Source of the DNA: Deltaproteobacteria bacterium | Lineage (GTDB): Bacteria > Desulfobacterota > Syntrophia > Syntrophales > UBA2210 | DNA length: 64,000 nt | Reading direction: 5' to 3' | Assembly (NCBI GenBank): GCA_019313905.1 | Contig: JAFDAI010000001.1 | Location: forward strand, 20,275-84,274 | Shown here: piece by piece, positions 1-14,826 of the stretch | How positions within the stretch are numbered: the first letter of the stretch is position 1 | Layout: every line of letters begins with the position of its first letter | Notes under the pieces: model-generated | Database searches by the model: none | Seen by the model: the letters and a program-made list of their open reading frames with translations, nothing else | Told to the model about the DNA's origin: nothing | Made by a program: the position numbers and the translations under genes

Positions 1-1191
1 TATTACATCGGTGATGTAATCAGGAATCCGAAAAAGCTTATCGCGAGAACCCCCGAAAAGTTTGAAGAAACGGGGATACGGGTGAGACTTAATACCCGCG
101 TTGAGGGCATTGAGGCCGACAGGGGTGAGGTTCTTCTGGCGGATGGCAAAAGGCTGTCATACGATGTCCTTGTCATGGGGACCGGAGCTGAGGCAGCCCT
201 GCCCGATATACCGGGCACGATGCAGGGGGGAGTCTTTACCCTGAAAAACCTGCGGGATGGCATTAACATCAGGGAATATATAAAGGATAACAGATGCCGC
301 AGGGCGGTGATAGTCGGGGCCGGTTTTATCGCCATGGAGATGAGCGAGGCCCTGAGGAATCTCGGCCTTGAGACCAGTATTGTGTACAGGGGCGAGCTTC
401 CCGTCAGAAAGTGGGACCCGGTATTTTCCGGGGTGGTGCTGGAGGAGCTTACGGAAAACGGGGTATCCTTTATCGCCCATAACTCTCCGGTTGCCGTTGA
501 GAAGGGCTCAGGGGGTCTATGCCTGGTTACCGGCGAGAGGAAAATAGAGACCGACATTATCATATTCGCCCTGGGCGTAAAGCCAAATACCCGGCTGGCG
601 CGTGAAGCGGGTCTTACGACAGGCGAATCCGGCGCCATCGGGGTGGATTCTTCACAGCATACATCACGCGAGGAGATATTTGCCGTGGGTGACTGCTGCG
701 AGTCATATAACCGGGTGAGCAAAAAATGGGCGCATATCCCTCTGGGGGATATGGCAAACAAACAGGGACGGGTAGCCGGTCGTAATATTGCCGGATATCC
801 CATGATATTCCCCGGGGTTGTGGGCGCCCAATCCTTTAAGATGTTTGACCTGGAAGTTGCCATGACCGGCCTTGATGAAAAGGGGGCGGAAAAGAGCGGA
901 TATTCTCCCGCGGGCAACATAATTTGGGGAAGTCCCGTGGCGCGTTCCATGAATAGAGGGCAGAAACTGGGTCTCAAGCTGATCGCGGACAGGGGTTCGG
1001 GAAAGCTGCTGGGCGCGCAGGCGGTGGGACAGAGCGGGGCGGTAAGCCGTATCAACATTCTGTCCGCGTGTCTGTGGTCCGGCATGGGGCTTGACGAGAT
1101 AGGATATATGGATCTCGCCTACAGTCCATCCTTTGGCGGGGCGTGGGATATGATTCATACAGCGGCACAGATTCTGGAGAAAAAATTGTGA
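1..1191 (+). CDS. FAD-dependent pyridine nucleotide-disulfide oxidoreductase (NADH oxidase / CoA-disulfide reductase family), 5' end outside window
   Basis: Frame 1 is open from nt 1 (YYIGDVIRNPKK...) into the listed ORF 82..1191. It carries an NAD Rossmann motif (VIVGAGFIAMEMSEAL), the FAD motif EIFAVGDC and a typical dimerisation-domain tail. Confidence 0.8.
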   Translation, partial: YYIGDVIRNPKKLIARTPEKFEETGIRVRLNTRVEGIEADRGEVLLADGKRLSYDVLVMGTGAEAALPDIPGTMQGGVFTLKNLRDGINIREYIKDNRCRRAVIVGAGFIAMEMSEALRNLGLETSIVYRGELPVRKWDPVFSGVVLEELTENGVSFIAHNSPVAVEKGSGGLCLVTGERKIETDIIIFALGVKPNTRLAREAGLTTGESGAIGVDSSQHTSREEIFAVGDCCESYNRVSKKWAHIPLGDMANKQGRVAGRNIAGYPMIFPGVVGAQSFKMFDLEVAMTGLDEKGAEKSGYSPAGNIIWGSPVARSMNRGQKLGLKLIADRGSGKLLGAQAVGQSGAVSRINILSACLWSGMGLDEIGYMDLAYSPSFGGAWDMIHTAAQILEKKL

Positions 1192-1207
1192 GGCTCCCCG
1201 GGTATAG

Positions 1208-2440
1208 ATGGAGAGAGCAGTGAGTTTTATATCCAAACCGGCGCTTGCCACACCGAAAAACAACAATTCCCGCCTGGCCTGGAGGATCGGAACAGCTACT
1301 TTATGCCGGCTTCTTCTGAACCTTGCCAGGCGTTTCCCCTATCCCTTCGCGCCCGCGCTTGGACGCGGCATGGGGGTTTCACTGGAGGCGGTCACTTCTC
1401 TGATCGCCGTTAATCAGATAACGGGCATCCTGAGTCCCCTGTTCGGACCTGTCGGAGATAAAAGAGGATACAGGCTTATGCTGCTGGCGGGGATGGGGCT
1501 GCTGGCGGGGGGAATGCTGGTTGCCGGTTTTCTGCCATTCTATGGCGTCGTGCTGGTTGCCCTGTTTATGGCAGGTCTCGGCAAGGCCATCTTTGATCCC
1601 GCAATACAGGCATATGTCGGACAACGCGTCCCCTTCCACAAGCGGGGACTGGTAATAGGGATCATGGAAACCGCCTGGGCGGGCAGTTCGTTGATAGGAA
1701 TCCCCGCCGCCGGCTTCATGATAGCGCACCTGGGATGGCGGTCACCGTTCTTCCTGCTGGGGGGACTGGGCCTGGCAGGGATGGTTGCTATCGCGATACT
1801 TATCCCCGGTGGCCGGCGCAAATCAGGAACTGCCGGCAAACAAACCGATTACTGGGCCGCGCTGCGGCAGTTGGGACAGGAAAAGGCCGCACTGAAGATG
1901 CTTGGTTTTGCGTTTTTTATCAGCGCCGCCAACGACAATTTCTTCGTTGTGTACGGAGCATGGCTGGAAAATGCCTTTAAGCTGGACATTGTAACCCTGG
2001 GAATGACGACAATTGTTATCGGTGTCGCTGAATTGTCGGGAGAGGGTCTGACGGCTTTCCTGGCCGACCGTCTGGGCCTGCGACGCTCTGTGATCATCGG
2101 GCTGTTCCTGTCGGGTGTAAGTTATATGGCGCTCCCATTGCTCGGAGATACTTTTTGTATGGCCATGGCGACTTTGTTTGTCGTTTTTATCGCCGTCGAG
2201 TTTTCCATCGTCTCTTTTCTCTCCCTTTGCACCGAGGTCCTGCCCGGCGCCCGTGCAACGATGATGTCCGGCGTCCTGGCGGCGGCCGGTCTGGGACGTG
2301 TGGCGGGAGCGCTGATCGGAGGCCCGGTATGGATGGCCGGGGGTATCTGGGCTGTCGGGTCTGTTTCGGCCTTTATCAGCGTCCTGGCAATGGCTTCTCT
2401 GTTGTGGGGATTAAATGGCTGGCTGCCTGAAAAATCTTGA
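1208..2440 (+). CDS. MFS transporter
   Basis: 410 aa and highly hydrophobic, with about 12 TM segments. MFS motif-A-like GPVGDKRGYR sits after the second hydrophobic segment. Confidence 0.8.
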   Translation: MERAVSFISKPALATPKNNNSRLAWRIGTATLCRLLLNLARRFPYPFAPALGRGMGVSLEAVTSLIAVNQITGILSPLFGPVGDKRGYRLMLLAGMGLLAGGMLVAGFLPFYGVVLVALFMAGLGKAIFDPAIQAYVGQRVPFHKRGLVIGIMETAWAGSSLIGIPAAGFMIAHLGWRSPFFLLGGLGLAGMVAIAILIPGGRRKSGTAGKQTDYWAALRQLGQEKAALKMLGFAFFISAANDNFFVVYGAWLENAFKLDIVTLGMTTIVIGVAELSGEGLTAFLADRLGLRRSVIIGLFLSGVSYMALPLLGDTFCMAMATLFVVFIAVEFSIVSFLSLCTEVLPGARATMMSGVLAAAGLGRVAGALIGGPVWMAGGIWAVGSVSAFISVLAMASLLWGLNGWLPEKS

Positions 2441-2465
2441 CAATGGCATGTAAATATTTTATTTT
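2437..2465 (+). promoter_or_regulatory. Candidate sigma70 promoter for the TAXI-TRAP operon
   Basis: TTGACA (2437-2442), 17-nt spacer, TATTTT (2460-2465). It overlaps the MFS stop codon. Confidence 0.35.
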
Positions 2466-2531
2466 CTAAAGAGTATGCGTTTTATTGAGAAAGAATATCA
2501 GGCAGTAAAACTATTTGAAAGGAGAGGCATT

Positions 2532-3557
2532 ATGTTTAAGAAGAGAAATCTTGTACTGTTTGTTGTGCTGATTGTGGCTTTGTCAATGGCCTTTATCAGC
2601 CCGGCGTTTGCGGCGAAGAAAAGTTTCTTTGCAATTGCCACAGGTGGCACGGGGGGCACTTACTATCCCCTGGGGGGGGTTCTGGCTCAGGCATTGTCCA
2701 ACAAACTCCCCAATGTTATTGTTACCGCCCAGTCGGGTAACGCGTCTGTCGCGAACTGTAACCTCATAAAGACACACCAGATCGAATCGGGGTTCGTGCA
2801 GAATAATGTTGCCTACGCGGCGTATAACGGGGTTGCGCAGTTTGATGGAAAACCCGTCAAAAACCTGAGGGCTATCGCCTCTCTCTACCCTGAGACAATC
2901 CAGATTATTGCCAGAGAGGGGGCAGGTATAAAGGGCGTGAAGGATCTGAAGGGAAAGAAACTGGTCCCTGGTGACAGAGGAAGTGGAACCGAAGTGGATT
3001 GTCAGGCTGTTCTTTCAGGTATCGGTCTTACCTATGATGATTTTGCCAATGTAGACTGGCTCAGCTTTTCCGGCGCCACCCAGAGGCTGAAAGACAGGCA
3101 GGCCGATGTGGCATTCATTACAGCAGGATGGCCCACGGCAGCCGTTACAGAGCTGGCCACAACATCAGATATCACACTTATTCCGCTGGATGATAAAACC
3201 ATAGCAACGATCATCAAGAAACATCCCTTTTACGCGAAGGTCGTTATCCCTGCAGGGACTTACAGGGGAGTGGATGTAGATATTCCCACCATCACCACGA
3301 TGGCTCAGTGGGTAGTTGATGCCGCCGTTCCGGAAGAGATGGTTTACAAGCTCACAAAGGCGCTGTGGGATAAGGGATCTTTTGTCCTGCGTAAAAAGGG
3401 CGGCAAGGCTGCCGCGGCTCCGAGCGGAGCTGAAATTATGGCGAAGGCCCATGCCAAGGGTAGAGATGTTACCATCGACACGGCGCTTGACGGCGTGGCG
3501 ATTCCCCTTCATCCGGGCGCAGCGAAATTTTACAGGGAGAAGGGTCTGATAAAATAG
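2532..3557 (+). CDS. TRAP transporter solute receptor, TAXI family
   Basis: GGAGAGG lies 4 nt upstream of ATG 2532. The protein has a signal peptide (MFKKRNLVLFVVLIVALSMAFISPAFA) and the TAXI signature ATGGTGGTYYPLGG. A DUF1850-like gene and a fused TRAP permease follow. Confidence 0.85.
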   Translation: MFKKRNLVLFVVLIVALSMAFISPAFAAKKSFFAIATGGTGGTYYPLGGVLAQALSNKLPNVIVTAQSGNASVANCNLIKTHQIESGFVQNNVAYAAYNGVAQFDGKPVKNLRAIASLYPETIQIIAREGAGIKGVKDLKGKKLVPGDRGSGTEVDCQAVLSGIGLTYDDFANVDWLSFSGATQRLKDRQADVAFITAGWPTAAVTELATTSDITLIPLDDKTIATIIKKHPFYAKVVIPAGTYRGVDVDIPTITTMAQWVVDAAVPEEMVYKLTKALWDKGSFVLRKKGGKAAAAPSGAEIMAKAHAKGRDVTIDTALDGVAIPLHPGAAKFYREKGLIK

Positions 3558-3615
3558 CAGGAGATTGATCTGTTAAGGAGGCATCCGGGCACCGGTTTTC
3601 CGGTGCCCGGCCTGT

Positions 3616-4116
3616 ATGGATAAGAAAAAAATAATTATTCTCTCTTCTATTGTCGCCCTCTTTTTCTTTTCTCTTATTCCCTGTCATATATTGCGAATAG
3701 AGGCGGCAAGGAAAAATCGAACTGTCTTCATCCAGATAATCCGGCCGGATTACAGATTTTCAACCAGGTATATTCATTCGGTTGAGCTGAGCCCTGTTCG
3801 GGAGTATTTCAAGATAGACAAAAACTTCAGAATCGTGCTTTATGAAACAACCTTCTCTTCCTGTAATACAGGCCTTCCAACCACCCTTTCCGGAGATGAA
3901 AAGTTCTACACTAATGGGGATCACATGCGTATCTCCGACATGCACAGGGTATTGCCGAAACTTGATCTGTGGGTCAATAAAAAATATGACAACACCCTGA
4001 CGCTGGAAAATGGAGAGATACTGAAACTCCCCTCTCTGGCAGGAGATACCCTCCTGAGGATAACAGTTGAAAAGCTGCCTGTTTTCAATCTGTTGTATCT
4101 GAAAGCAAGAATTTGA
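3616..4116 (+). CDS. DUF1850-like small membrane-anchored protein, typical companion of TAXI-TRAP systems
   Basis: 166 aa with an N-terminal TM helix. It sits between the TAXI receptor and the fused permease, and YIHSVELSPV resembles the DUF1850 core. Family assignment is from memory. Confidence 0.65.
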   Translation: MDKKKIIILSSIVALFFFSLIPCHILRIEAARKNRTVFIQIIRPDYRFSTRYIHSVELSPVREYFKIDKNFRIVLYETTFSSCNTGLPTTLSGDEKFYTNGDHMRISDMHRVLPKLDLWVNKKYDNTLTLENGEILKLPSLAGDTLLRITVEKLPVFNLLYLKARI

Positions 4117-4128
4117 GAGGCCTTTTAT

Positions 4129-6855
4129 ATGGAACTACAGGAAACAGTAACCATCTCTGAAAACATAGAAGAAATTGCCAAATACGATCCGGAGTTTCGA
4201 TTCCGCAAGCTCACAGGTATTACACTGAAGCTTGCCTTTTTTATGACGCAGGTTCTTTCGATATTTCATATCTATACGGCCGGCTTCGGCGTTTTTCAAG
4301 AGTGGAGACACAGGGCCTTTCATCTGGCCTTCGTCCTGCCACTTGTGTTTTTCCTTTATACGATAAGAAAAGATAAAACGGAATCCAGGAAACATCTTGT
4401 CTATGATACCATCTATGGCATTATCGGCGCCGCCATTACCGGCGCCATGTTTCGCGAAATCCTGGAACTTTCAGGATACGCCACACTTGTCCTATCGGCA
4501 GCCTCATTCCTGTTTATCATCTATTTCAAGCGCAGGGAGTTTCTGTCGAACAGACTTTTTATCTATATAGACTTCGTTGTGTTTTCCATAATGATAGTGG
4601 TGCTGGCCTACGGCGCGCGTCTCGGTTTTCAGTATATGCACCTTGGGGAAGCATTTGAAAATTCCGGCATATCTCTCTTCTTCTGGAGCGTTTTCCTGTT
4701 CGGTGTATTCTTCAGCATGATATTGCTCTTTGCCCTTCAGTGGGTCAGGGCACTGCTTGCCATGATAAAGAGCGCGAATTTCGGCTATGAACAAGACAAT
4801 ATCCCCTATTTTGATGTATTCCTTGCAATTCTCGCGTCTTTTATCTCTGTTTATATATTTCTGGAATTTAACAGTCTGGTTATACGCGCGGGGCTTCCCC
4901 TCAAGATGGATGTTGTTGTGGGCACCTTTGCCATTTTGCTGGTGCTGGAGGGGGCGCGACGCAGTATAGGGCCTCCCCTTCCTATTATTGCCTTCATTGT
5001 TCTGATAAACTGTTATCTGGGTCCCTATTTTCTTGATATTCCCGGGCTCAGTTTTTTCGCGCACAGAGGATATTCCATTGAGCGGATTATTGAGCACATG
5101 TATCTTGGCACGGAGGGTATATACGGTATTCCGCTCGGGGTTGTCGCCACTTTTGTGTTCCACTTTGTGCTGTTCGGAATCTTTATATCCAAAACAGGTC
5201 TGGGTCAGTTCTTTATGGATTGCGCGATGGCCATTGCCGGGTGGTCTGCCGGCGGTCCCGCCAAGGTTGCCGTTATAAGCAGTGGCTTCATGGGTTCTAT
5301 AAGCGGGAGTTCCATAGCGAATACCGTCACTACCGGGGCGTTTACGATTCCTCTCATGAAACGCGTCGGGTATTCCCCCCGGTTCGCCGGAGCCGTGGAG
5401 GCAGCTTCATCGACGGGTGGGCAACTGATGCCGCCTATTATGGGCGCTGCGGCATTCATCATGGCGGAATTCTTAGGCATACCATACATCAAGATTGCCG
5501 CGTGCGCGGTTGTCCCCGCCATACTTTATTTCTTTGCGGTGGGCACCATGGTGCATCTGGAGGCCAAAAAACAAGGACTTCTGGGGCTCCCTCGTGAGAC
5601 GCTGCCCCGCCTGTGGAAGGTAATAAAGGATGGGTGGCTGCTGCTGACACCCCTCGTCATTATTATATATCTCCTGATCTCGGGGAGCAGCCCGTTTCTG
5701 GCCGCCTTCTGGGGAATCTTTTTTTCCGTTGCCACAGGCCAGGTACACAGGAAGACATATCCTCTGCTGATCACTATCTTTCTGGCGATCCCATCTGTCC
5801 TGGTCAGGGCAAATCCCCTGGAACATCTTTCCCTCTTTTCGATCATATGGTTTGCCCTGCTTGCCGCCGGGGTTGTCTATGCCTTCAAAAAAACAGACAG
5901 GTCTTCCTGGCTTCCGGGTCTGCTGCCTGCCTCTGTTCTTGTGGTGTTGCTTGCATGGGGGCTGGAGCCATCCCTCTGCTCCTTCTGGGCAATAATAACA
6001 GTTATCGCGATAGGAGTCTGCTACAGGGAAAGCAAAATGAAAATACCGGATATAATGGAAACCCTGGAACTGGGAACAAAAAATGCCCTCGCCATCGGGG
6101 CCGCGTGTGCCTGTATAGGCTTTATTGTGGGGGCAACAACCCTTACCGGTCTGGGGCTCAAGTTTGCGGCCGCGGTTATTGAACTTGCCCATGTGATAAC
6201 GTCTATTGTTATGAACCTTGATATACTCCATCTCCTGAGCACAAACTCTGTCGCACTGTTCTTCACCCTCTTACTTACCGCCGTGGCATGTTTTATCCTC
6301 GGCATGGGGATTCCCACGACGGCCCAGTATATTATAGCGTCCATGATAGCCGCTCCGGCGCTTATGCAGTGGGGCATTCACCCTCTGGTATCTCACATGT
6401 TTGTGCTGTTTTATGCCGTTCTCGCGGATGTAACCCCCCCCGTCGCCCTTGCTGCCTACGCGGCGTCGGGAATTTCCGGCGCTAATCCGTTCAAGACGGG
6501 GTTTACCGCCTTCGGTCTGGCTTCCGCAGGGTTTATCGTTCCCTTTGTTATTGTGTCCGCTCCTATAATCCTCTGGCTGCCGCCGCTTCTCGATCCCGAA
6601 GCTTCATTTGACTACCTCAGATTTGCGCATATATTCATAACGCTGCTGATGGGTGTTGTGGCTCTTGGAGCTACCGTTATAGGATATTTCAGGAGTCATT
6701 CAACGCTTTTCGAAAGGGCGCTGACAGGTATCGCGGCATTGTTCCTCCTTTCCCCGGAGGTTTACAGTGATCTTACAGGAATAGTTATATTTGTATTCCT
6801 TTATATAGTCCAAGGCAGGAGAAATAAAAAAATAACTGAAGGAGAAACAAGATGA
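4129..6855 (+). CDS. TRAP transporter fused permease subunit (TAXI type, 4TM/12TM fusion)
   Basis: 908 aa polytopic membrane protein located directly after the TAXI receptor and DUF1850-like gene. Confidence 0.85.
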   Translation: MELQETVTISENIEEIAKYDPEFRFRKLTGITLKLAFFMTQVLSIFHIYTAGFGVFQEWRHRAFHLAFVLPLVFFLYTIRKDKTESRKHLVYDTIYGIIGAAITGAMFREILELSGYATLVLSAASFLFIIYFKRREFLSNRLFIYIDFVVFSIMIVVLAYGARLGFQYMHLGEAFENSGISLFFWSVFLFGVFFSMILLFALQWVRALLAMIKSANFGYEQDNIPYFDVFLAILASFISVYIFLEFNSLVIRAGLPLKMDVVVGTFAILLVLEGARRSIGPPLPIIAFIVLINCYLGPYFLDIPGLSFFAHRGYSIERIIEHMYLGTEGIYGIPLGVVATFVFHFVLFGIFISKTGLGQFFMDCAMAIAGWSAGGPAKVAVISSGFMGSISGSSIANTVTTGAFTIPLMKRVGYSPRFAGAVEAASSTGGQLMPPIMGAAAFIMAEFLGIPYIKIAACAVVPAILYFFAVGTMVHLEAKKQGLLGLPRETLPRLWKVIKDGWLLLTPLVIIIYLLISGSSPFLAAFWGIFFSVATGQVHRKTYPLLITIFLAIPSVLVRANPLEHLSLFSIIWFALLAAGVVYAFKKTDRSSWLPGLLPASVLVVLLAWGLEPSLCSFWAIITVIAIGVCYRESKMKIPDIMETLELGTKNALAIGAACACIGFIVGATTLTGLGLKFAAAVIELAHVITSIVMNLDILHLLSTNSVALFFTLLLTAVACFILGMGIPTTAQYIIASMIAAPALMQWGIHPLVSHMFVLFYAVLADVTPPVALAAYAASGISGANPFKTGFTAFGLASAGFIVPFVIVSAPIILWLPPLLDPEASFDYLRFAHIFITLLMGVVALGATVIGYFRSHSTLFERALTGIAALFLLSPEVYSDLTGIVIFVFLYIVQGRRNKKITEGETR

Positions 6856-7850
6856 GCGGTAAGGCAATACGGGTGGTGCAATATGGATTAGGGCCTATTG
6901 GAAGCGCTACGGCACGCCATATTATGGAACGGGAGGGAATGGAACTGGTCGGCGTGGTGGATATTGACCCGGCAAAAACAGGCAGGGATATCGGTGAGGT
7001 AATCGGCCTTGACAGCCCTATGGGATTCCCCGTGGTTAAAAACCTGTCCCTGGTGCTGGAAAGGACAGGGGCGGATGTGGCGCTTCACACAACAGGATCC
7101 TTCTTTGATCTTTTTGAATCTCAGATTGTGGAGATTCTGGAGGCCGGGCTTGATATTGTCTCAACATCCGAGGAACTTTCGTTCCCCTGGCTGGCCCACC
7201 CGGATGCCGCCGCCAGGATAGACGCCGCTGCCAGGCAGGCAGGTAAAACCGTATTGGGCACAGGCGTCAACCCCGGTTTTCTCATGGATTCTCTACCCCT
7301 TAACCTTACGGCTATCTGTCAGCGGGTGGACCGCATTGACGTGACGCGTCGCATGAATGCCTCATTGCGGCGCGGACCTTTCCAGGCAAAGATAGGTTCA
7401 GGGATGACGGTGGAAGGATTTAAGTCAAAAATGGAAACGGGGCGCATGGGACATGTTGGGCTTCCGGAATCTATGGGAATGGTTTTTCACACATTAGGCA
7501 GAAACATGGTAAAATATGAATCCAGTGTCGAGCCGGTAGTGGCCGATTCGCCGGTAAAGACCGATCATTTTGAGATACAACCCGGCCAGGTGAGAGGCCT
7601 TAAACAGGTAGCCCGTGGTTATACCGGTGAGGGCGAGTTTATAACCCTTACCTTCATAGCCGCCCTGGATGAAAAAGAGGATGGAGATACCATCCTGATT
7701 ACCGGGAAACCGGATCTGGAGGTCAGACTGAAGGGCACCAATGGCGACATCGCGACGGTAGCCATCGCGGTCAATGCCGTGCGCCGTGTATTTGAGGCGC
7801 TGCCCGGGCTGGTCACAATGCGTGACCTGCCCATAGTAACAATCTGGTAG
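6852..7850 (+). CDS. DapB-fold NAD(P)-dependent amine dehydrogenase-like protein (2,4-diaminopentanoate dehydrogenase / native AmDH family)
   Basis: N-terminal Rossmann motif RVVQYGLGPIGSATARHI, about 330 aa. Its ATG overlaps the permease stop (ATGA at 6852-6855). Family assignment is by overall sequence character, not by search. Confidence 0.65.
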   Translation: MSGKAIRVVQYGLGPIGSATARHIMEREGMELVGVVDIDPAKTGRDIGEVIGLDSPMGFPVVKNLSLVLERTGADVALHTTGSFFDLFESQIVEILEAGLDIVSTSEELSFPWLAHPDAAARIDAAARQAGKTVLGTGVNPGFLMDSLPLNLTAICQRVDRIDVTRRMNASLRRGPFQAKIGSGMTVEGFKSKMETGRMGHVGLPESMGMVFHTLGRNMVKYESSVEPVVADSPVKTDHFEIQPGQVRGLKQVARGYTGEGEFITLTFIAALDEKEDGDTILITGKPDLEVRLKGTNGDIATVAIAVNAVRRVFEALPGLVTMRDLPIVTIW

Positions 7851-7877
7851 GTAAAAATATCAGGTGAGGTGGTTCTT

Positions 7878-9692
7878 ATGAAAAGATTAATTGATTTGTC
7901 AAAGGAAGAACTTATCGAAAGGATATGGAAGGCAGAACCCGAACTTAAGGGTATTCTTCGTAATTCCAGACATGTGGAAGAAGCTCGGTATGTGTTTTTC
8001 GATTATCTTGATCGTTTCAGAAGAGATCTGTACAACATGAAGTCCGGCACACCCTTTACGGATCTGAATGTTGTGGAGAAGAGAAACGCCCGGGAATGTA
8101 TCAGGGTGCTTTCAAATACAATGCGGACAGAGAATGAACATCTGACACAGACCTCGCCTCTGGAACTTTTGTATAATCTTGCAAATAATGAGGAAAGAAC
8201 CCTTGAGAAGGTAAGCGCGGGGTTTTTGCTGGAATATGTTGCCCTGCTGGAGGGTATCAGAGGGAAATATGGAAAACATTCCAGATACCACGAGCTCCTG
8301 GAGCAGAAAGAGGGCAGAGCTGCCGCCATTGAACGATCTTCCCAGCTGGATGCTTACGGGAAGATGGTGAGAAGATACTTCAGGCGGTACAAAACAGGGC
8401 TGGATCCTAAACTGGTCCAAAAAAGGACTGCGCTGAAACACAAGATACTGGATCATTTCGGGGCCGGAGAAGAAGACTGGGGAAATTATCTCTGGCACAT
8501 GAAACACATCATCAGGGACACTGAGACACTGTCTGCTCTTGTCAAGCTGGATGATGATGAAATGGAAGGTTTGACACTGGCGACAAAAAATCATATTCCT
8601 TTTGAAATAACGCCTCATTATCTATCGCTTTTTAATGAAGATGGAAGATCTCCTCATGATCGCACCGTTCGCGCGCAGGTTATCCAGAGCTCCCAGTATT
8701 GCATCAACGTCCTCGCAAATCAGGGGGATGGAAGAGACATGGATTTTATGGGAGAGCGTGCTACAAGTCCGATAGATGGAGTCACGCGCAGGTATCCTCA
8801 GATTATTATCATGAAACCGTTCAATTCATGCCCGCAGATATGTGTTTATTGTCAGAGAAACTGGGAGATAAAGGATATTGACGACAACCCCATGATGCCC
8901 AGGGACAAGGTAGAAGAGATGATAAACTGGGCCAGAGAGGATGAAAATCTCTCAGAGATTCTGATAACCGGTGGAGACCCTTTTACACTCAACAACAAGT
9001 ACCTTGACTGGATGATCGGAGAGGTCGCGGCAATAGATCATGTAGACAGGATAAGAATCGGAACCAGAACGCTTGTAACCCTGCCCCAGAGGATAAATGA
9101 CGGTCTGCTTGAGATCCTTGAGAAATACCACGAGTGGGGAAAAAGAGAGATCGCTATCGTTACACATATCGAACACCCCACCGAGATATGTCCGGAAGTC
9201 CTGGACGCCGTGAAAAAGATAAGAAAGCTGGGAATCAATATCTATAACCAGCAGGTCTTTACCTATTATAACAGCAGAAAATTTGAAACGGCCTTCCTGC
9301 GGAAAACGCTCAAGGTTTGCGGTATTGATCCCTACTATACATTCAACTGTCAGGGTAAGGGTGAAACCGTGGATTTCAGGGTTCCCATAGCAAGGATATT
9401 GCAGGAAAATAAAGAAGAGGGAAGGCTCCTGCCCGGTCTTGTCAGGACGGATGAGCCGGTCTTTAATGTGCCGAGGCTGGGGAAATCACACTTGAGGGCG
9501 TGGCAGGACCATGAAGTCATAATGATTTTACCCGATGGCCGGAGGGTATACAGATTCTATTCATGGGAGACAAAGCTTACAACGGCCAAGGACTACCTCT
9601 ACACGGATGTGTCCATTTACGATTACCTCAAAAGGCTCCGGGAAGATGGCGAGAACGTGAACGATTATCTTTCCATGCTGTATTATTTTTAA
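7878..9692 (+). CDS. KamA-family radical SAM / PLP-dependent amino acid 2,3-aminomutase-like enzyme with a long N-terminal extension
   Basis: CPQICVYCQ is the CxxxCxxC cluster motif. ITGGDPF, RIGTRTLVTLPQRIN and VPRLGKS (putative PLP lysine) are KamA-like. GAGGTGG lies 5 nt before ATG 7878; the listed ORF starts at GTG 7869. Confidence 0.85.
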   Translation: MKRLIDLSKEELIERIWKAEPELKGILRNSRHVEEARYVFFDYLDRFRRDLYNMKSGTPFTDLNVVEKRNARECIRVLSNTMRTENEHLTQTSPLELLYNLANNEERTLEKVSAGFLLEYVALLEGIRGKYGKHSRYHELLEQKEGRAAAIERSSQLDAYGKMVRRYFRRYKTGLDPKLVQKRTALKHKILDHFGAGEEDWGNYLWHMKHIIRDTETLSALVKLDDDEMEGLTLATKNHIPFEITPHYLSLFNEDGRSPHDRTVRAQVIQSSQYCINVLANQGDGRDMDFMGERATSPIDGVTRRYPQIIIMKPFNSCPQICVYCQRNWEIKDIDDNPMMPRDKVEEMINWAREDENLSEILITGGDPFTLNNKYLDWMIGEVAAIDHVDRIRIGTRTLVTLPQRINDGLLEILEKYHEWGKREIAIVTHIEHPTEICPEVLDAVKKIRKLGINIYNQQVFTYYNSRKFETAFLRKTLKVCGIDPYYTFNCQGKGETVDFRVPIARILQENKEEGRLLPGLVRTDEPVFNVPRLGKSHLRAWQDHEVIMILPDGRRVYRFYSWETKLTTAKDYLYTDVSIYDYLKRLREDGENVNDYLSMLYYF

Positions 9693-10330
9693 TGTCTTAG
9701 CTGTTGTTTTTTTGAGTTTCCTGTGAACAACAGCGGGAATACGATATCACTGACACAGCAGGGTATCAGGACAGCAACAAACAGGAATATAAAGACGGCA
9801 ACATAAGACAGCCAGTTTAATATATCCCCCGCCGCCATAATTATATGAAAGAGTGAAGCCCAGGTGCTGAGGAGAACATGTCCGGCATGGGGAAACTTTG
9901 TCGACGGCCGGAAATAGGCTATGGCTATTCCCAGTATTGCCAGGGGATTTATCAGCCACCACTTTTCGATGAAGCCGATGTGAAGGCCCCTTTCAGGCAT
10001 ATTGAGCATAATTTCGCCAAGATAGGGTATCAGGGAATCACTTATAGTGGCAATACCTATGGATCCTGCATAACCAATAACCAGCAGAATCCAAATATTA
10101 CATTTGCCTTTGATCTTACCACATTTGTGAAGTTCGTACATGGATGCCGTGACAAGGGCACTGAGAACAACGTGTGCCGGGTGGAGAACATAAAATATAT
10201 TCATAGCAGTTGTGTGGGGTACATGCTGAAAGAGGACCATAATTACTATACCGGTAATTGCACCAAAAAGAGTAAAAGGGGCGTGATTTTTTAATTCTTT
10301 TAATATTTGTCCGGTCATAACTCTCCTCAT
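9689..10330 (-). CDS. Hypothetical polytopic membrane protein, His-rich
   Basis: 213 aa with about 6 hydrophobic segments and repeated His (HVPH, HPAH, HAGH, FH). Its stop overlaps the convergent aminomutase stop by 4 nt. Confidence 0.55.
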   Translation of the reverse strand: MRRVMTGQILKELKNHAPFTLFGAITGIVIMVLFQHVPHTTAMNIFYVLHPAHVVLSALVTASMYELHKCGKIKGKCNIWILLVIGYAGSIGIATISDSLIPYLGEIMLNMPERGLHIGFIEKWWLINPLAILGIAIAYFRPSTKFPHAGHVLLSTWASLFHIIMAAGDILNWLSYVAVFIFLFVAVLIPCCVSDIVFPLLFTGNSKKQQLRH

Positions 10331-10450
10331 CTTTTTTATCCGGAAAGTATACTCTTTGCAAGCTTTACGTCAAGTTAAGTCGTTAATTATCTTAAATAAA
10401 GCGCATATGCAAGCCCTTTATCTAAAAAATAAATCAGGCGCTTTGACCTG

Positions 10451-10479
10451 TTGCGTCCTCGTAATAAGAAGGCTATAAT
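10451..10479 (+). promoter_or_regulatory. Candidate sigma70 promoter for the M16 peptidase gene
   Basis: TTGCGT (10451-10456), 17-nt spacer, TATAAT (10474-10479). Confidence 0.35.
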
Positions 10480-10512
10480 GAAAATTTTAGCAATATCAGG
10501 CAAAATAAAACG

Positions 10513-13455
10513 ATGGGGGAACAAATGACAGAGGCATCTTATGGTTTTGAACTCTTACAGGAACAGTATATTGATGAACTGAAGACACGCGCAAGATTTT
10601 ACAGGCATGTCCAAACGGGCGCCGAGCTTTTATCGATGATAAATGATGACGAGAACAAGGTGTTCGGAATCACCTTTCGGACGCCACCTCGCGATTCAAC
10701 AGGCGTGGCCCACATTCTGGAGCATTCCGTCCTCTGCGGTTCCCGCAGGTATCCGGTGAAGGAACCCTTCGTGGAAATATTAAAGGGCTCTCTGCAGACT
10801 TTCCTGAATGCCTTCACCTATCCGGACAGGACCTGTTATCCCGTGGCAAGTCAGAATGTCCAGGATTTTTACAATTTGATAGATGTCTATCTTGACGCGG
10901 TCTTCTACCCGCGTATCACGCCGGAGATATTTCAGCAGGAGGGGTGGCACTACGAGATGGAGGCGCCGGATGGACCTCTTGTGTACAGGGGCGTGGTTTT
11001 CAATGAAATGAAGGGCGCAAACTCATCTCCGGACAGGCTTCTCGCCGAATATTCACAACAGTCTCTGTTTCCCGATAATACATACGGGCTGGATTCGGGG
11101 GGAGATCCCGCGGTTATCCCCGAGCTGGAATATGAACAGTTCAGGGATTTTCACCGGAGATACTATCATCCTTCCAATGCACGCATTTTCTTTGCCGGTG
11201 ATGATGACCCGGAAGAGAGACTGCGGCTTACAAATGATTATCTGAAAGACTTTCAAAAGATGAAAGTGGATTCAGCGATATTCCTCCAGCCACGATTTGA
11301 CGGTCCCAGACGGGTCGTGCGTTCCTTTGCCGCGGGAGACGATTCATCCAGGAGTATGGTGACGGTAAACTGGCTGTTTAGCGAGACAAAAGATGCCGTC
11401 ACAAATATGGCTCTCCATATTCTGGGATATATCCTTCTTGGCACGCCCGGTTCGCCCCTGCGCAAGGCGCTTATTGAGTCCGGCCTCGGAGAGGATGTTA
11501 CAGGAGGCGGCCTGGAGGGTGAATTGCAGCAACTGTTTTTCTCTGTGGGACTGAAGGGAATTGATGACGGGAAGGCGAATGCTGTGGAGGCACTGATACT
11601 GGAAACTCTGGAAAGGCTGGCGGGGGATGGCATTGAGCCCGACGCGGTGGAAGCAGCCGTTAATACCATAGAATTCGGCCTGCGTGAAAACAACACAGGC
11701 AGTTATCCCCGCGGGCTGGTGCTGATGCTCAGGGCAATGACTACATGGCTGTATGATGGCGACCCTCTTGCATTACTTTCCTTTGAGTCTCTTCTGTCGG
11801 AGGTCAAGTCGCGTATCACTTCGGAGAAATCATTCTTTGCAGATACGATAAGAAAATATTTCCTGGATAATCCGCACCGCACAACTGTTGTTATGGAACC
11901 GGATACGAATCTGAAGAATGAGATGGATGCGGTGGAGAAACAGAGACTCGATGATGTTCGCGGTTCCGCCGGCCCGGAGAGATTGGAAAACACCTTTAAA
12001 AACGCCGAACGGCTCAAAAAAATCCAGGAAGCTCCGGATTCTCCTGACGCCCTTGCAACCATACCCATCCTGAAGCTTGCCGATCTGGAGAAGAAAAACA
12101 GGACAATACCTCTCTCCGTTCTGGATGAAAAGGGTGCAACGGTTTTGTATCACGACATATCCACAAATGGCATCGCATACGTTGAAACAGGTCTGAATCT
12201 GCGCTCATTGCCCCGGAGATATGTCCAGTATATTCCCCTGTTCAGCAGAGCGCTCCTTGAAATGGGTACAAAAAAGGAAGATTATGTTGAGATTTCCCGT
12301 AGAATTGACCGGAAGACAGGGGGAGTGCATCCATCTTTGTTTATATCAGAGGTTAAGAATACAGGCGATGTCGAGGCCAGGCTTTTCGTCTGCGGGAAGG
12401 CGATGCTTCCACAGGTGGGGGACCTTTTCGATATTATCAGGGATCTTCTTATGGATGTCAGACTGGACAACAGGGAGCGTTTCAGGCAGATGGTCCTGGA
12501 GGAAAAAGCCCGGCAGGAACAGCAGCTGATACCCGGCGGACATCAGGCAGTTAACCTGCGCCTGAGGGCACATTTCAGCAAAGCCGGCTGGTTGGCCGAA
12601 CAGTTAAACGGAGTGAGTTATCTCTTCTTTCTGCGTGAACTTGCCGGCAGGATAGATAATGACTGGTCTTCTGTTTATTCTACTCTTGAGGAGATGCGGC
12701 ATGCCCTTGTCAACCGTGAGAATATGTTATTCAATGTCACCGTTGATGAAGCAGGATGGGGAAAGGTAAGGCCCTGTCTTGCCAGCTTTGCAGGCAAAAT
12801 ACCGGCAGGGCCGGTCGGCACAGAGTCTAACATTGCCGGAGATCTTTTGACTGACATGAATATCCCTGGACATGAGGGACTTATCGTTCCCTCTCAGATC
12901 AACTATGTAGGAAAGGGAGCGGATATTTACAGGGCGGGATATACGTATCACGGCTCTATCAAGGTTATTACCCGCTATCTCAGGACTTCCTGGCTGTGGG
13001 ATCGTATCCGGGTGCGGGGGGGGGCCTACGGAGCGTTTTGTAGTTTTGATAAATTTTCCGGTGTATTGACCTTTCTGTCGTACCGCGATCCGAATCTTCT
13101 GAAAACCATCGAGACGTTCGACGAAACAGCCGGATTCCTGCGTAATTGTAATCTGGGCGATGATGAATTGACGAAGGGCATTATCGGCGCCATAGGGGAT
13201 ATGGATGCGTATATGTTTCCCGATGCCAGAGGATATGCCTCAATGGTTCATTATCTGACCGGTAATACCGAGGAAGATATCCAGCGTACGCGAGATGAAA
13301 TTCTGTCTACAACAGCTCAAGATTTCAAAAAGTTTGCGGGTGTGATAGACGAGGTGGCAAAAAACGGATTGGTGAAAATTCTTGGTTCAGAGAACGCTAT
13401 TGCAGAAGCCGCCGGTGGTAAGCTGCCGCCACTGAACATCTTAAAGGTGCTTTAA
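10513..13455 (+). CDS. M16C family metallopeptidase (presequence protease / PreP-like insulinase)
   Basis: 980 aa with the inverted zinc motif HILEHSVLCGS (HxxEH) near the N-terminus. Length and architecture are typical of M16C. ATG 10525 is an alternative start. Confidence 0.9.
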   Translation: MGEQMTEASYGFELLQEQYIDELKTRARFYRHVQTGAELLSMINDDENKVFGITFRTPPRDSTGVAHILEHSVLCGSRRYPVKEPFVEILKGSLQTFLNAFTYPDRTCYPVASQNVQDFYNLIDVYLDAVFYPRITPEIFQQEGWHYEMEAPDGPLVYRGVVFNEMKGANSSPDRLLAEYSQQSLFPDNTYGLDSGGDPAVIPELEYEQFRDFHRRYYHPSNARIFFAGDDDPEERLRLTNDYLKDFQKMKVDSAIFLQPRFDGPRRVVRSFAAGDDSSRSMVTVNWLFSETKDAVTNMALHILGYILLGTPGSPLRKALIESGLGEDVTGGGLEGELQQLFFSVGLKGIDDGKANAVEALILETLERLAGDGIEPDAVEAAVNTIEFGLRENNTGSYPRGLVLMLRAMTTWLYDGDPLALLSFESLLSEVKSRITSEKSFFADTIRKYFLDNPHRTTVVMEPDTNLKNEMDAVEKQRLDDVRGSAGPERLENTFKNAERLKKIQEAPDSPDALATIPILKLADLEKKNRTIPLSVLDEKGATVLYHDISTNGIAYVETGLNLRSLPRRYVQYIPLFSRALLEMGTKKEDYVEISRRIDRKTGGVHPSLFISEVKNTGDVEARLFVCGKAMLPQVGDLFDIIRDLLMDVRLDNRERFRQMVLEEKARQEQQLIPGGHQAVNLRLRAHFSKAGWLAEQLNGVSYLFFLRELAGRIDNDWSSVYSTLEEMRHALVNRENMLFNVTVDEAGWGKVRPCLASFAGKIPAGPVGTESNIAGDLLTDMNIPGHEGLIVPSQINYVGKGADIYRAGYTYHGSIKVITRYLRTSWLWDRIRVRGGAYGAFCSFDKFSGVLTFLSYRDPNLLKTIETFDETAGFLRNCNLGDDELTKGIIGAIGDMDAYMFPDARGYASMVHYLTGNTEEDIQRTRDEILSTTAQDFKKFAGVIDEVAKNGLVKILGSENAIAEAAGGKLPPLNILKVL

Positions 13456-13510
13456 AATATGGGAAACCCGGCCATGCACGATCAGGCGGTGGGTTTTGGT
13501 CATTATTTTA

Positions 13511-13539
13511 TTGACACACAAGATTGTTCATATTATATT
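13511..13539 (+). promoter_or_regulatory. Near-consensus sigma70 promoter-like element
   Basis: TTGACA (13511-13516), 17-nt spacer, TATATT (13534-13539). If used, it gives a leader of about 430 nt before the CoA-transferase genes. Confidence 0.35.
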
Positions 13540-13971
13540 TTCACTTGGTGGTAAGTCTTGGTCAGGTTTCTGTATGAAAGTATCAGGCATTCTGTTCTTT
13601 GAAATTTTGCAGGATCTCCGCATCGGAATCTGTTATGAAACTGAAACTTCTCAGTTCATTCTGAATCTGAATGCGCAGTTGCTGTGCCTGCGCTGCAAGC
13701 GGAATGTCATGTAGAGAAGTAATTTAATGCACTTATTTTATAATTTATTTACATGTAAAAACCTGACCGGAAGTTGCTGATTTTTATTGTTGATGTGTTC
13801 GTAAAAAGTCTTCCCAAGATGTTATTTCGAGTAAGACGAGAAATCTGGCGTGTGTGACATATTATAGATGCAAGGTTTCTCTCTGTGGTTGAAATGACGA
13901 ATTCGCTGATTTTGACTTTTTGCGGGTTTATAGTTGTTGAAAAGAAAATTCTTATCAAAAAAGGAGGAATC

Positions 13972-14793: not shown

Positions 14794-14826
14794 ACCAGAT
14801 AACTATAATAAGTTAGGAGGTAGATA

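What the first reader, a model, noticed from the sequence alone, without database searches (positions are those of the whole stretch)
2437..9692. TAXI-TRAP importer in one operon with a DapB-fold amine dehydrogenase and an atypical KamA-family aminomutase: candidate undescribed beta-amino-acid route
Seen in the sequence: five co-directional genes with minimal spacers (TAXI receptor, DUF1850-like, fused permease, dehydrogenase, aminomutase). The permease stop overlaps the dehydrogenase start (ATGA at 6852-6855), and the aminomutase ATG lies 27 nt after the dehydrogenase stop.

Established knowledge: KamA-family enzymes (radical SAM plus PLP) shift an alpha-amino group to the beta carbon. The DapB-fold family that includes 2,4-diaminopentanoate dehydrogenase and native amine dehydrogenases oxidatively deaminates non-alpha amines to ketones. 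Characterised TAXI-TRAP systems import carboxylates and amino acids such as glutamate.

Inference: import of an amino acid, then an alpha-to-beta shift, then oxidative deamination to a beta-keto acid. None of the partners of the known lysine pathway (kamDE, kdd, kce, kal) or ornithine pathway (oraSE, ortAB) is present in the window, so this is not a textbook pathway. For glutamate, the product would be 3-oxoglutarate and then acetoacetate, which could feed the CoA-transferase and acd-hbd-crt genes 4-10 kb downstream.
Basis: partly seen in the sequence, partly recalled or inferred. Interest (0 to 1): 0.7.

Follow-up and report, generated by a model that had tools for sequence, protein, structure and literature searches.

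The report
Amino-acid importer, aminomutase, amine dehydrogenase operon
A small group of uncultured Syntrophales bacteria keeps an amino-acid importer, a radical-SAM aminomutase and an amine dehydrogenase of unknown substrate in one operon, which probably breaks down glutamate through beta-glutamate, a route nobody has described, but the evidence is only gene context.

Summary
The permease and dehydrogenase overlap in ATGA, and 27 nt separate the dehydrogenase from the aminomutase.

The family calls hold:
- The transporter is a TAXI-TRAP system.
- The dehydrogenase is neither DapB nor true 2,4-diaminopentanoate dehydrogenase. Its active-site signature is that of native amine dehydrogenase group G1, whose substrate is published as unknown.
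- The aminomutase is KamA-family, not EpmB and not lysine 2,3-aminomutase. It belongs to a very large family of about 604 aa with an N-terminal extension. That family carries the Lys/Asn substrate signature of glutamate 2,3-aminomutase, but this clade has Gln in place of the Lys.

The operon is conserved only in close relatives (aminomutase at least 76% identical). The other 75 of 80 genome loci lack the dehydrogenase and the transporter. Dehydrogenases 76-78% identical sit in other contexts. The suggested link to the downstream CoA-transferase and acd-hbd-crt genes is not conserved.

My best reading, at about 0.35 confidence, is glutamate import, a shift to beta-glutamate, then NAD(P)-linked deamination to 3-oxoglutarate. 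This is a new variant of the aminomutase-plus-amine-dehydrogenase logic.

The parts
2437..2465 (+). Sigma-70-like promoter candidate (TTGACA, 17 nt, TATTTT) between the MFS gene stop and the TAXI gene
   Evidence: This is only a consensus match, and the number of such matches in the region is not above shuffled sequence. Its position fits an operon start.
2532..3557 (+). TAXI-family TRAP solute-binding protein, 341-aa precursor with signal peptide; the ORF is open from 2475
   Evidence: TIGR02122 scores 338.7 bits against a cut-off of 84, and PF16868 also matches. The ribosome-binding site AGGAGAGG lies at 2520-2527. The nearest solved structures are the glutamate binders 1US4/1US5 and 8S4J. 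The equivalents of VcGluP Y45, Q93, S75 and E125 are conserved; Y200 is Ile here.
3616..4116 (+). DUF1850 protein, a small membrane-anchored protein encoded between the TAXI receptor and permease genes here and in the relatives' operons
   Evidence: PF08905 scores 60.9 bits against a cut-off of 27. It is conserved in the same position in L001, L003, L004 and L090.
4129..6855 (+). Fused TRAP permease (DctQ-DctM type), 908 aa, about 290 aa longer than the family model
   Evidence: TIGR02123 scores 689 bits against a cut-off of 321, and PF06808 also matches. Its stop overlaps the dehydrogenase start.
6852..7850 (+). [quoted passage not shown]
   Evidence: PF19328 scores 122 bits. The Ord equivalog NF040740 scores 272 against a cut-off of 400, and dapB scores 24 against 122. 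The nearest structures are 7XDU and AmDH4 6G1H/6G1M. My hand-mapped pocket signature S-S-E-G-V-N-F-L-R-M-N-R-F-I-H-V-G-F-A-G-T matches a listed G1 member at 19 of 21 positions, with Arg at P12 where Ord has Phe.
7878..9692 (+). KamA-family radical-SAM/PLP aminomutase of the long (about 604 aa) type, with a helical N-terminal extension of about 185 aa and Gln492 at the position of LAM Asp293
   Evidence: TIGR00238 scores 318 against a cut-off of 199. The best equivalog is glutamate 2,3-aminomutase at 236 against 650, then LAM at 192 and EpmB at 128. The cluster motif is C318/C322/C325. R327 matches LAM R134. K536 matches the PLP lysine and N530 matches LAM D330. The family alignment is A1. The AlphaFold model shows an all-helical N-terminal domain.

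Best explanation
This is a catabolic operon for an imported acidic amino acid, most likely L-glutamate.

Proposed steps:
1. The TAXI-TRAP system takes up the amino acid.
2. The long-type KamA aminomutase (radical SAM plus PLP) moves the 2-amino group to C3, giving beta-glutamate.
3. The G1-type DapB-fold amine dehydrogenase oxidatively deaminates beta-glutamate with NAD(P)+ to 3-oxoglutarate.
4. 3-Oxoglutarate is a beta-keto acid that loses CO2 readily, giving acetoacetate. Acetoacetate enters the organism's abundant acetoacetyl-CoA and butyryl-CoA metabolism.

Shown here: the gene order and tight coupling, the family memberships, conservation of the operon in one Syntrophales clade, and the residue patterns.

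Inferred: the substrate, the direction of the mutase, the dehydrogenase's substrate, and every step after it.
For: 1. The five genes form one unit, with a 4-nt overlap and 12-58 nt gaps.
2. The unit is conserved with the same spacing on independent contigs down to 76-79% aminomutase identity: L001, L003, L004 and L090/L091. Contig lengths shared between aminomutase and dehydrogenase hits also suggest four more pairs on one contig each: P0002/P0126, P0005/P0134, P0009/P0150 and P0015/P0144 (inference).
3. In an alignment with a bona fide glutamate 2,3-aminomutase (P0307, 693 vs 650) and a bona fide LAM (P0378, 638 vs 525), LAM D293/D330 correspond to K/N in the glutamate enzyme. They also correspond to K/N in 134 of 180 long-family sequences. 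N530 and the carboxylate arginine R327 are kept in the window protein. Of the specific models, glutamate 2,3-aminomutase scores best.
4. The TAXI receptor is closest to the two structurally characterised glutamate-binding TAXI proteins. It keeps the residues that dominate glutamate affinity in VcGluP, namely Y45 and Q93, and also S75 and E125 (PMC11574862).
5. The dehydrogenase has the G1 signature. The authors who defined G1 infer a substrate like 2,4-diaminopentanoate, with the usual carboxylate and a further negative or proton-accepting group held by Arg P12. They report that no substrate and no consistent gene context are known. Beta-glutamate is not among the compounds named as tested in the parts I read (PMC11164908).
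6. A second, unrelated arrangement also joins a Gln-type aminomutase to an amino-acid importer and a catabolic enzyme: GntR, then aminomutase, then enoyl-CoA hydratase 13 nt later, then a LIV-type ABC system (L104). This fits a catabolic role for this subclade.
Against: 1. The trio is confined to a narrow clade. 75 of 80 genome loci with the aminomutase have no dehydrogenase or TRAP gene within 10 kb.
2. Sister-clade aminomutases are standalone or sit in a gcvTHP-lipA operon.
3. Dehydrogenases 76-78% identical occur without any KamA gene. They lie beside Opp or LIV ABC systems, GSA-aminomutase-like aminotransferases, a racemase or hydantoinases. The dehydrogenase's substrate therefore does not require this mutase.
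4. The window clade has Gln492 (Met in the sister clade) where the glutamate enzyme has the Lys thought to hold the gamma-carboxylate. The substrate may have changed.
5. No biochemical data exist for any member at these identities.
6. The identity of this family with the Methanococcus beta-glutamate-forming enzyme could not be checked.
7. Co-transcription alone does not prove a shared pathway.
Confidence: 0.35

Rival explanations
1. This is beta-glutamate scavenging. The TAXI-TRAP system imports beta-glutamate, an osmolyte released by methanogen partners. The aminomutase runs in reverse, from beta-glutamate to L-glutamate. The dehydrogenase then deaminates either L-glutamate to 2-oxoglutarate or beta-glutamate directly.
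For: - Aminomutase reactions are freely reversible (established knowledge).
- Syntrophales live with methanogens. Methanogen genomes carry the same long-type aminomutase (Methanocella, Methanolinea, Methanoperedens).
- L-glutamate itself fits the published G1 pocket inference, being 2,4-diaminopentanoate with a carboxylate in place of the methyl (my inference).
- Overall similarity of the TAXI receptor cannot distinguish alpha-glutamate from beta-glutamate.
Against: - There is no evidence that this receptor binds beta-glutamate.
- The receptor residues that contact the alpha-amino and alpha-carboxyl groups in VcGluP are conserved, which favours an alpha-amino acid.
- A DapB-fold glutamate dehydrogenase has not been described.
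Confidence: 0.2
2. The adjacency has no shared pathway. The aminomutase is the ordinary standalone beta-glutamate (osmolyte) synthase of its family and happens to lie behind a transporter-dehydrogenase pair that degrades some other amine-bearing acid.
For: - The aminomutase is a lone gene with no conserved neighbour in most lineages, including DPANN archaea, Bacteroidales and Fibrobacterota. A clostridial-type glutamate 2,3-aminomutase is also alone.
- The dehydrogenase recurs beside other transporters without any KamA gene.
- In the complete chromosome of the closest relative (L001), no second aminomutase locus appeared among the 80 best genome hits. This copy must then also serve whatever general role the family has.
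Against: - The 27-nt spacer and ribosome-binding site are conserved over 76-90% identity.
- The Lys-to-Gln change is specific to this subclade.
- A second Gln-type aminomutase is linked to a different importer and a catabolic enzyme.
- Co-expressing an osmolyte synthase with a glutamate importer would make sense, but the dehydrogenase in between would then be unexplained.
Confidence: 0.2
3. The logic is the same (import, alpha-to-beta shift, oxidative deamination) but the substrate differs, for example L-glutamine or another amino acid without a charged side chain. The Lys492-to-Gln change would mark the switch in specificity.
For: - Position 492 is one of only two columns that separate the Gln-type clade from 134 Lys-type sequences on an otherwise very conserved background.
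- It aligns with the side-chain-binding Asp293 of LAM and the Lys of glutamate 2,3-aminomutase.
- VcGluP also binds glutamine, with lower affinity.
Against: - K494, two residues away, is invariant and could still hold a carboxylate.
- The dehydrogenase keeps both pocket arginines, which fits a dicarboxylate better than an amide.
- Met occupies the same position in standalone sister genes, so the change predates or is independent of the operon.
Confidence: 0.15
4. The KamA-like protein modifies a protein or another macromolecule, in the way EpmB acts in EF-P lysylation, and is not a metabolic enzyme.
For: - The long N-terminal helical domain has no known family.
- The gene is present in reduced DPANN genomes.
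Against: - The EpmB model scores 128 against a cut-off of 369.
- No epmA or efp gene was recognised among the neighbours scanned.
- The residue pattern matches the free-amino-acid enzymes: the carboxylate Arg, the PLP Lys and the K/N signature.
Confidence: 0.04

Closest known systems
Lysine fermentation (KamA lysine 2,3-aminomutase, KamDE, Kdd 3,5-diaminohexanoate dehydrogenase, Kce, Kal)
   Same: The chemical logic is the same. A radical-SAM/PLP 2,3-aminomutase of the KamA family prepares the amino acid, and an NAD(P)-dependent dehydrogenase then turns a non-alpha amine into a ketone, giving a cleavable beta-keto acid.
   Different: The aminomutase fails the LAM model (192 vs 525) and lacks both lysine-binding aspartates. 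None of the window genes scanned is kamDE, kdd, kce or kal. The dehydrogenase is DapB-fold, which from my own knowledge is not the Kdd family. A transporter is built into the operon.
Ornithine fermentation (OraSE, Ord 2,4-diaminopentanoate dehydrogenase, OrtAB)
   Same: The dehydrogenase is a homologue of Ord (PF19328; NF040740 at 272 bits). It shares the catalytic Glu (P3), Arg P9 and His P15.
   Different: It scores below the Ord cut-off of 400. It has Arg instead of Phe at P12 and Phe instead of His at P18, so it falls in group G1, not G2. None of the window genes scanned is oraSE or ortAB. The partner mutase is radical-SAM, not B12-dependent.
Glutamate 2,3-aminomutase: the Clostridioides difficile type (TIGR04368; Ruzicka and Frey 2007) and the N-terminally extended Methanococcus maripaludis MmarC7_1783 (Tunckanat et al. 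2022, Biochemistry 61:1077; cited, abstract recalled from memory)
   Same: Of the specific models it is the best-scoring one. The family shares the Lys/Asn replacement of LAM Asp293/Asp330. An N-terminal extension of similar size is reported for the archaeal enzyme. Both types are standalone genes in most genomes.
   Different: The window protein scores 236 against a cut-off of 650. It lacks the LAM_C domain. It has Gln, not Lys, at the first signature position. It sits in a transporter-dehydrogenase operon, which suggests catabolism rather than osmolyte synthesis. Direct relatedness to MmarC7_1783 was not testable here.
Native amine dehydrogenases, group G1 (Mayol et al. 2019; Elisee et al. 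2024, PMC11164908)
   Same: The pocket signature matches a listed G1 member at 19 of 21 positions. The family and fold are the same.
   Different: G1 has no known substrate and, as published, no consistent gene context. Here a G1 member sits in a conserved operon with an aminomutase and an importer, which yields a concrete candidate substrate.
Glutamate-specific TAXI-TRAP VcGluPQM (Vibrio cholerae) and TtGluBP (Thermus thermophilus)
   Same: The TAXI family is the same. These are the closest solved structures. The key ligand residues Y45, Q93, S75 and E125 are conserved.
   Different: Y200 is Ile and S40 is Gly. The permease carries a long extra N-terminal region. No binding data exist for this receptor.

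Membership tests
KamA family radical-SAM aminomutases (TIGR00238) | Score above the curated family cut-off | tested here: met
   318.3 bits against a cut-off of 199.2.
KamA family radical-SAM aminomutases (TIGR00238) | CxxxCxxC cluster motif, GGD/E SAM motif, PLP-binding lysine and carboxylate-binding arginine | tested here: met
   C318-P-Q-I-C322-V-Y-C325 and R327 (LAM R134) are present. TGGDP is invariant. K536 aligns with LAM K337.
Glutamate 2,3-aminomutase, clostridial type (TIGR04368) | Score above the equivalog cut-off | tested here: not met
   236.2 bits against a cut-off of 650. It is still the highest-scoring specific model.
Glutamate 2,3-aminomutase, clostridial type (TIGR04368) | Lys and Asn in place of LAM Asp293 and Asp330 (criterion recalled from Ruzicka and Frey 2007; checked here on a bona fide equivalog) | tested here: inconclusive
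   Asn is met (N530). Lys is not met in the window protein (Q492), but it is met in 134 of 180 family members. K494 is invariant.
N-terminally extended glutamate 2,3-aminomutase (MmarC7_1783 type) | N-terminal extension of roughly 160 aa on a KamA core | tested here: met
   LAM residue 13 aligns with residue 197 of the window protein. The extension is conserved across bacteria and archaea and is helical in the model.
N-terminally extended glutamate 2,3-aminomutase (MmarC7_1783 type) | Sequence relatedness to the characterised Methanococcus protein, and formation of beta-glutamate | not testable with these tools
   The paper is not held. The reference sequence could not be obtained, and a search from a divergent family member returned no Methanococcus entry.
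Lysine 2,3-aminomutase (TIGR03820) | Equivalog score, and Asp293/Asp330 for the epsilon-amino group | tested here: not met
   192 bits against a cut-off of 525. The two positions are Q492 and N530.
EpmB (EF-P beta-lysylation; TIGR03821) | Equivalog score | tested here: not met
   128 bits against a cut-off of 369.
2,4-Diaminopentanoate dehydrogenase Ord (NF040740; group G2) | Equivalog score, Phe at P12 and His at P18, and ornithine-pathway neighbours | tested here: not met
   271.6 bits against a cut-off of 400. P12 is Arg173 and P18 is Phe268. No oraSE or ortAB gene is nearby.
Native amine dehydrogenase group G1 | Catalytic Glu at P3, Arg at P9, Arg at P12 and the rest of the G1 P1-P21 signature | tested here: met
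   E107, R166 and R173 are present. 19 of 21 positions are identical to the G1 member A0A523WAC6 listed in Supplementary Data 5 of PMC11164908. I mapped the positions by hand from HMMER alignments to AmDH4. The P9-P14 stretch has an ambiguous indel.
DapB (4-hydroxy-tetrahydrodipicolinate reductase; TIGR00036) | Equivalog score | tested here: not met
   24 bits against a cut-off of 122. Only the N-terminal Rossmann part matches.
TAXI-TRAP transporter | TAXI receptor plus fused DctQM permease, both above their cut-offs | tested here: met
   TIGR02122 scores 338.7 against 84. TIGR02123 scores 689 against 321. DUF1850 scores 60.9 against 27.
Glutamate-specific TAXI receptors (VcGluP, TtGluBP) | The ligand-binding residues that dominate affinity (Y45, Q93) and the amino- and carboxyl-group ligands (E125, S75) | tested here: met
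   All four are conserved in the phmmer alignment to 8S4J. Y200 is Ile. Actual ligand binding is not testable here.

The most novel reading that the evidence does not exclude
The operon encodes a previously undescribed short route of glutamate (or beta-glutamate) catabolism: glutamate to beta-glutamate to 3-oxoglutarate to acetoacetate.

In this reading, a group-G1 native amine dehydrogenase is the first beta-glutamate dehydrogenase. The Gln492 subclade of the long KamA family consists of catabolic aminomutases that diverged from the Lys-type family, whose members mostly stand alone and may make beta-glutamate as an osmolyte.
Probability: 0.3. Interest if true: 0.75.

Novelty: new variant of a known kind. 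Interest (0 to 1): 0.55.

Why it matters
- **Beta-glutamate has no known breakdown route.** It is a known osmolyte of methanogens, and one paper reports it raised in stool in Parkinson's disease. That paper notes that KEGG lists a single reaction for it (PMC12502400). I found no catabolic route for it in the searchable literature.
- **It would name a substrate for an orphan enzyme group.** Group G1 of the native amine dehydrogenases has 1,427 modelled members and no known substrate after substantial screening (PMC11164908). This operon gives a concrete, cheap candidate to test: beta-glutamate and 3-oxoglutarate.
- **It would add a new branch to anaerobic amino-acid fermentation.** If confirmed, this would be a further glutamate fermentation route, with two dedicated enzymes, in syntrophic bacteria of anaerobic digesters and sediments.
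- **It points to one specificity position.** The single Lys/Gln/Met position in an otherwise almost invariant aminomutase family is a clean handle for specificity studies.

Tried and rejected
1. I tried to tie the aminomutase to the characterised Methanococcus enzyme. The paper is not held. Literature searches for locus tags found nothing. Cluster look-ups of divergent representatives gave no useful names. The last homology search, from the low-GC representative P0253, returned no Methanococcus entry. The link stays unverified.
2. I rejected the link to the downstream CoA-transferase, FabD-like, crt, hbd and acd genes. They lie beyond a convergent gene and an M16 peptidase, partly on the other strand. 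They are syntenic only in the 88% relative L001, not in L003 or L090.
3. I looked for a riboswitch or leader RNA. Rfam gave no match in 1-14000 at E up to 0.1.
4. I looked for a beta-glutamate cluster around a clostridial-type glutamate 2,3-aminomutase. That gene stands alone.
5. I rejected EpmB, LAM, arginine 2,3-aminomutase, DapB and Ord as identities, because all fall below their cut-offs.
6. The AlphaFold model of the aminomutase had only moderate confidence (mean pLDDT 67.7, and low in 487-547, where the signature residues lie). I did not use it for pocket inference or a fold search.
7. Promoter and terminator scans were no better than shuffled sequence.

Full report
**Observation**

The + strand between 2437 and 9692 carries five ORFs in one direction:
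- a TAXI receptor, with the ORF open from 2475. The likely start is ATG 2532, behind AGGAGAGG at 2520-2527 and before a signal peptide;
- a DUF1850 protein at 3616-4116;
- a 908-aa fused TRAP permease at 4129-6855;
- a 332-aa dehydrogenase at 6852-7850;
- a 604-aa aminomutase at 7878-9692.

The other gaps are 58 and 12 nt. The aminomutase stop overlaps the stop of a convergent gene, so the unit ends there. A TTGACA-17-TATTTT match lies at 2437-2465, but such matches are not enriched over shuffled sequence. Rfam finds nothing in 1-14000.

**Family identities**

- *Transporter.* The receptor (TIGR02122, 339 vs 84), the permease (TIGR02123, 689 vs 321) and DUF1850 all pass their cut-offs.
- *Dehydrogenase.* It has the DAP_DH_C domain. 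It fails the Ord equivalog (272 vs 400) and is far from DapB (24 vs 122).
- *Aminomutase.* It passes the KamA family model (318 vs 199). It fails every specific model: glutamate 2,3-aminomutase 236 vs 650, LAM 192 vs 525, arginine 2,3-aminomutase 152 vs 600, EpmB 128 vs 369.

**The aminomutase family**

The protein is not a one-off.
- Full-length homologues of about 604 aa number in the thousands of 90% clusters.
- At least 565 hits were found among GTDB species genomes.
- They come from Syntrophales, Methanocella, Methanolinea, Methanoperedens, DPANN archaea, Bacteroidales, Fibrobacterota, Marinimicrobia and many others.
- Conservation is striking: mean column identity is 68% across 13 bacterial and archaeal sequences, N-terminal extension included.

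Against LAM (PDB 2A5H), the CxxxCxxC motif (C318, C322, C325) and the carboxylate arginine (R327, matching R134) are in place, and LAM residue 13 aligns with residue 197. The extension is therefore about 185 aa. AlphaFold predicts it as all-helical. Pfam detects no LAM_C domain.

I aligned the family with a bona fide glutamate 2,3-aminomutase (P0307, 693 vs 650) and a bona fide LAM (P0378, 638 vs 525). LAM's lysine-binding Asp293 and Asp330 are Lys and Asn in the glutamate enzyme. They are Lys and Asn in the long family too ('TKGK' and 'VFNVP..GK'). K536 aligns with the PLP lysine.

From my own memory of the abstract, Tunckanat et al. (Biochemistry 2022, 61:1077; cited) showed that a Methanococcus maripaludis KamA-like protein with an N-terminal extension of about 160 aa makes beta-glutamate. 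This family is very probably that one. I could not obtain the paper or the sequence, so this remains unverified.

**A clade-specific residue**

Among 180 family sequences, the position aligned with LAM Asp293 is Lys in 134, Met in 25, Gln in 20 and Leu in 1. The window protein and all operon-linked relatives have Gln. Only two alignment columns separate the Gln-type from the Lys-type sequences: 492 (Lys to Gln) and 358 (Ile to Leu). K494 is invariant. This may mark a change in how the side chain is held, or a change of substrate.

**The dehydrogenase**

Its nearest structures are 7XDU and AmDH4 (6G1H, 6G1M). I used the P1-P21 pocket positions of AmDH4 given in Supplementary Data 5 of Elisee et al. 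2024 (PMC11164908). The window protein reads S-S-E-G-V-N-F-L-R-M-N-R-F-I-H-V-G-F-A-G-T.
- That is identical at 19 of 21 positions to a listed G1 member.
- It has the G1 hallmark Arg at P12, where G2/Ord has Phe.
- It has Phe at P18, where G2/Ord has His.

[quoted passage not shown] They also state that its ketone substrates are still not known, and that no consensual gene context exists. Beta-glutamate and 3-oxoglutarate are not among the tested compounds named in the parts I read. I did the mapping by hand from HMMER alignments, and the P9-P14 stretch contains an ambiguous indel.

**The receptor**

The closest solved structures are the two glutamate-binding TAXI proteins, TtGluBP (1US4/1US5) and VcGluP (8S4J). 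Mutagenesis showed Y45 and Q93 to dominate glutamate affinity in VcGluP (PMC11574862). Both are conserved in the window receptor. So are S75 and E125, which contact the alpha-carboxyl and amino groups. Y200 is Ile. This favours glutamate or a close analogue, but those residues are also common among TAXI proteins in general.

**Conservation of the gene neighbourhood**

- *From the aminomutase side.* Of 80 genome loci with 10-kb flanks, L001, L003 and L004 carry the full operon. L002 is a 2.6-kb contig that holds only the end of the dehydrogenase gene and the aminomutase gene. The aminomutases in these four are 79-90% identical to the window's. The remaining 75 show no dehydrogenase or TRAP gene, discounting L006, whose contig starts inside the aminomutase.
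- *More operon copies.* Metagenome contigs add L090 and L091. Matching contig lengths suggest four more aminomutase-dehydrogenase pairs, down to 76% identity (inference).
- *Other aminomutase contexts.* About a dozen Syntrophales loci (63-67% identity, Lys-type) place the gene between gcvT-gcvH-gcvPA-gcvPB and lipA. Met-type genes at 71-75% are standalone between a TPR gene and rodZ-tatA-ssb. Elsewhere there is no conserved neighbour.
- *From the dehydrogenase side.* Homologues 76-78% identical lie beside an Opp ABC system and an amidohydrolase, beside a glutamate-1-semialdehyde-aminomutase-like aminotransferase with a LIV ABC system and sometimes an alanine racemase, beside hydantoinases, or beside an ABC-2 exporter. 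The source names some of them as Anaerolineae.

One further observation points the other way. A Gln-type aminomutase at 69% identity (L104) lies in a different catabolic-looking unit: a GntR regulator, the aminomutase, an enoyl-CoA hydratase 13 nt later, and a LIV-type amino-acid ABC system.

**Wider context in the window**

The CoA-transferase pair, the FabD-like gene, and crt, hbd and acd at 13.9-20.4 kb are real. They are separated from the operon by a convergent gene and an M16 peptidase. They are syntenic only in L001, and are absent after M16 in L003 and L090. I give this link no weight. The rest of the window is housekeeping: LptD, a Mur-ligase-like gene, RpoA, SecY, EF-Tu, RpoC, GAPDH, TIM, and small unscanned ORFs that I take to be ribosomal-protein genes from size and position.

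**Interpretation**

Three independent residue-level observations point to a glutamate-like dicarboxylic amino acid: the receptor, the mutase family signature, and the two-arginine pocket of the dehydrogenase. The operon is tight and conserved within its clade.

Against it stand the narrow distribution, the independent lives of both enzymes elsewhere, the Gln492 change, and the total absence of biochemistry. I put it at 0.35.

The main rivals are:
- beta-glutamate scavenging with the mutase running in reverse (0.2);
- mere adjacency of a general beta-glutamate synthase to an unrelated transporter-dehydrogenase pair (0.2);
- the same logic on another substrate (0.15).

**Novelty**

The parts belong to known families, and the logic mirrors lysine and ornithine fermentation. 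The specific combination has not been described in anything I could search: a long-type KamA enzyme, a G1 amine dehydrogenase and a TAXI-TRAP system. Nor has any beta-glutamate catabolic route. KEGG is reported to hold a single beta-glutamate reaction. I rate it a new variant of a known kind, with interest 0.55. It is a cheap and specific hypothesis that could give the orphan G1 group a substrate.

Noticed in passing
L069:5576-12723, also L010, L013, L014 and about 10 further Syntrophales loci: In a Lys-type subclade (63-67% identical to the window aminomutase), the long KamA gene sits inside a glycine-cleavage operon: gcvT-gcvH-gcvPA-gcvPB-aminomutase-lipA. I have no explanation for this pairing.
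   Followed up: partly
L084:6594-8996, L087:6428-10185, L096:6488-8999: G1 dehydrogenases 76-78% identical to the window's (some homologues at this level are named Anaerolineae by their source) are preceded by a class-III aminotransferase whose best match is glutamate-1-semialdehyde 2,1-aminomutase (240-259 bits, below the cut-off). They lie next to a LIV-type ABC system, and in L087 are followed by an alanine racemase. The dehydrogenase thus pairs with an aminomutase-like enzyme of a second, unrelated fold.
   Followed up: partly
L104:6865-16260: A Gln-type long aminomutase at 69% identity lies in a unit of GntR/FCD regulator, aminomutase, enoyl-CoA hydratase (13-nt gap) and a five-gene LIV-type amino-acid ABC transporter. 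An ADP-forming acyl-CoA synthetase-like gene lies upstream on the other strand. This hints at a CoA-dependent beta-amino-acid route.
   Followed up: partly
L005:7356-9937: A deoxyhypusine-synthase-like gene (PF01916) and a 369-aa protein with no family lie directly upstream of a Met-type aminomutase.
   Followed up: no
window 9689-10330 (- strand): A 213-aa multi-pass membrane protein has no Pfam or NCBIfam match. It converges on the aminomutase gene, and the two stop codons overlap. It is conserved in this position in L001, L003 and L090. In those relatives an extra gene of about 255 aa lies between it and the aminomutase.
   Followed up: partly
window 82-2440: A Pyr_redox_2 flavoprotein gene lies upstream of the operon in all relatives. 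An MFS transporter gene is inserted between it and the TAXI gene only in the window and in L001.
   Followed up: partly
window 4129-6855: The fused TRAP permease is 908 aa, against a 615-position family model. It has an extra N-terminal membrane region of about 185 aa and matches the model in three stretches.
   Followed up: no
window about 14000-18000: Cumulative GC skew peaks near 14-16 kb, and gene orientation switches from + to - at about 17.4 kb. From there to about 61 kb nearly all genes, including the ribosomal-protein and rpoBC blocks, are on the - strand.
   Followed up: no
L090/L091 and L100/L101: The same two metagenome samples (ENA ERZ27252234, JGI 3300030616) hold both an operon-type Gln aminomutase contig and a standalone Met-type contig. 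The two types therefore co-exist in one community, or possibly in one genome.
   Followed up: no
window 13885-15897: Two adjacent CoA-transferase-like genes match PF01144 only weakly (51 and 36 bits) and match no NCBIfam model. They may be a divergent two-subunit CoA-transferase.
   Followed up: no
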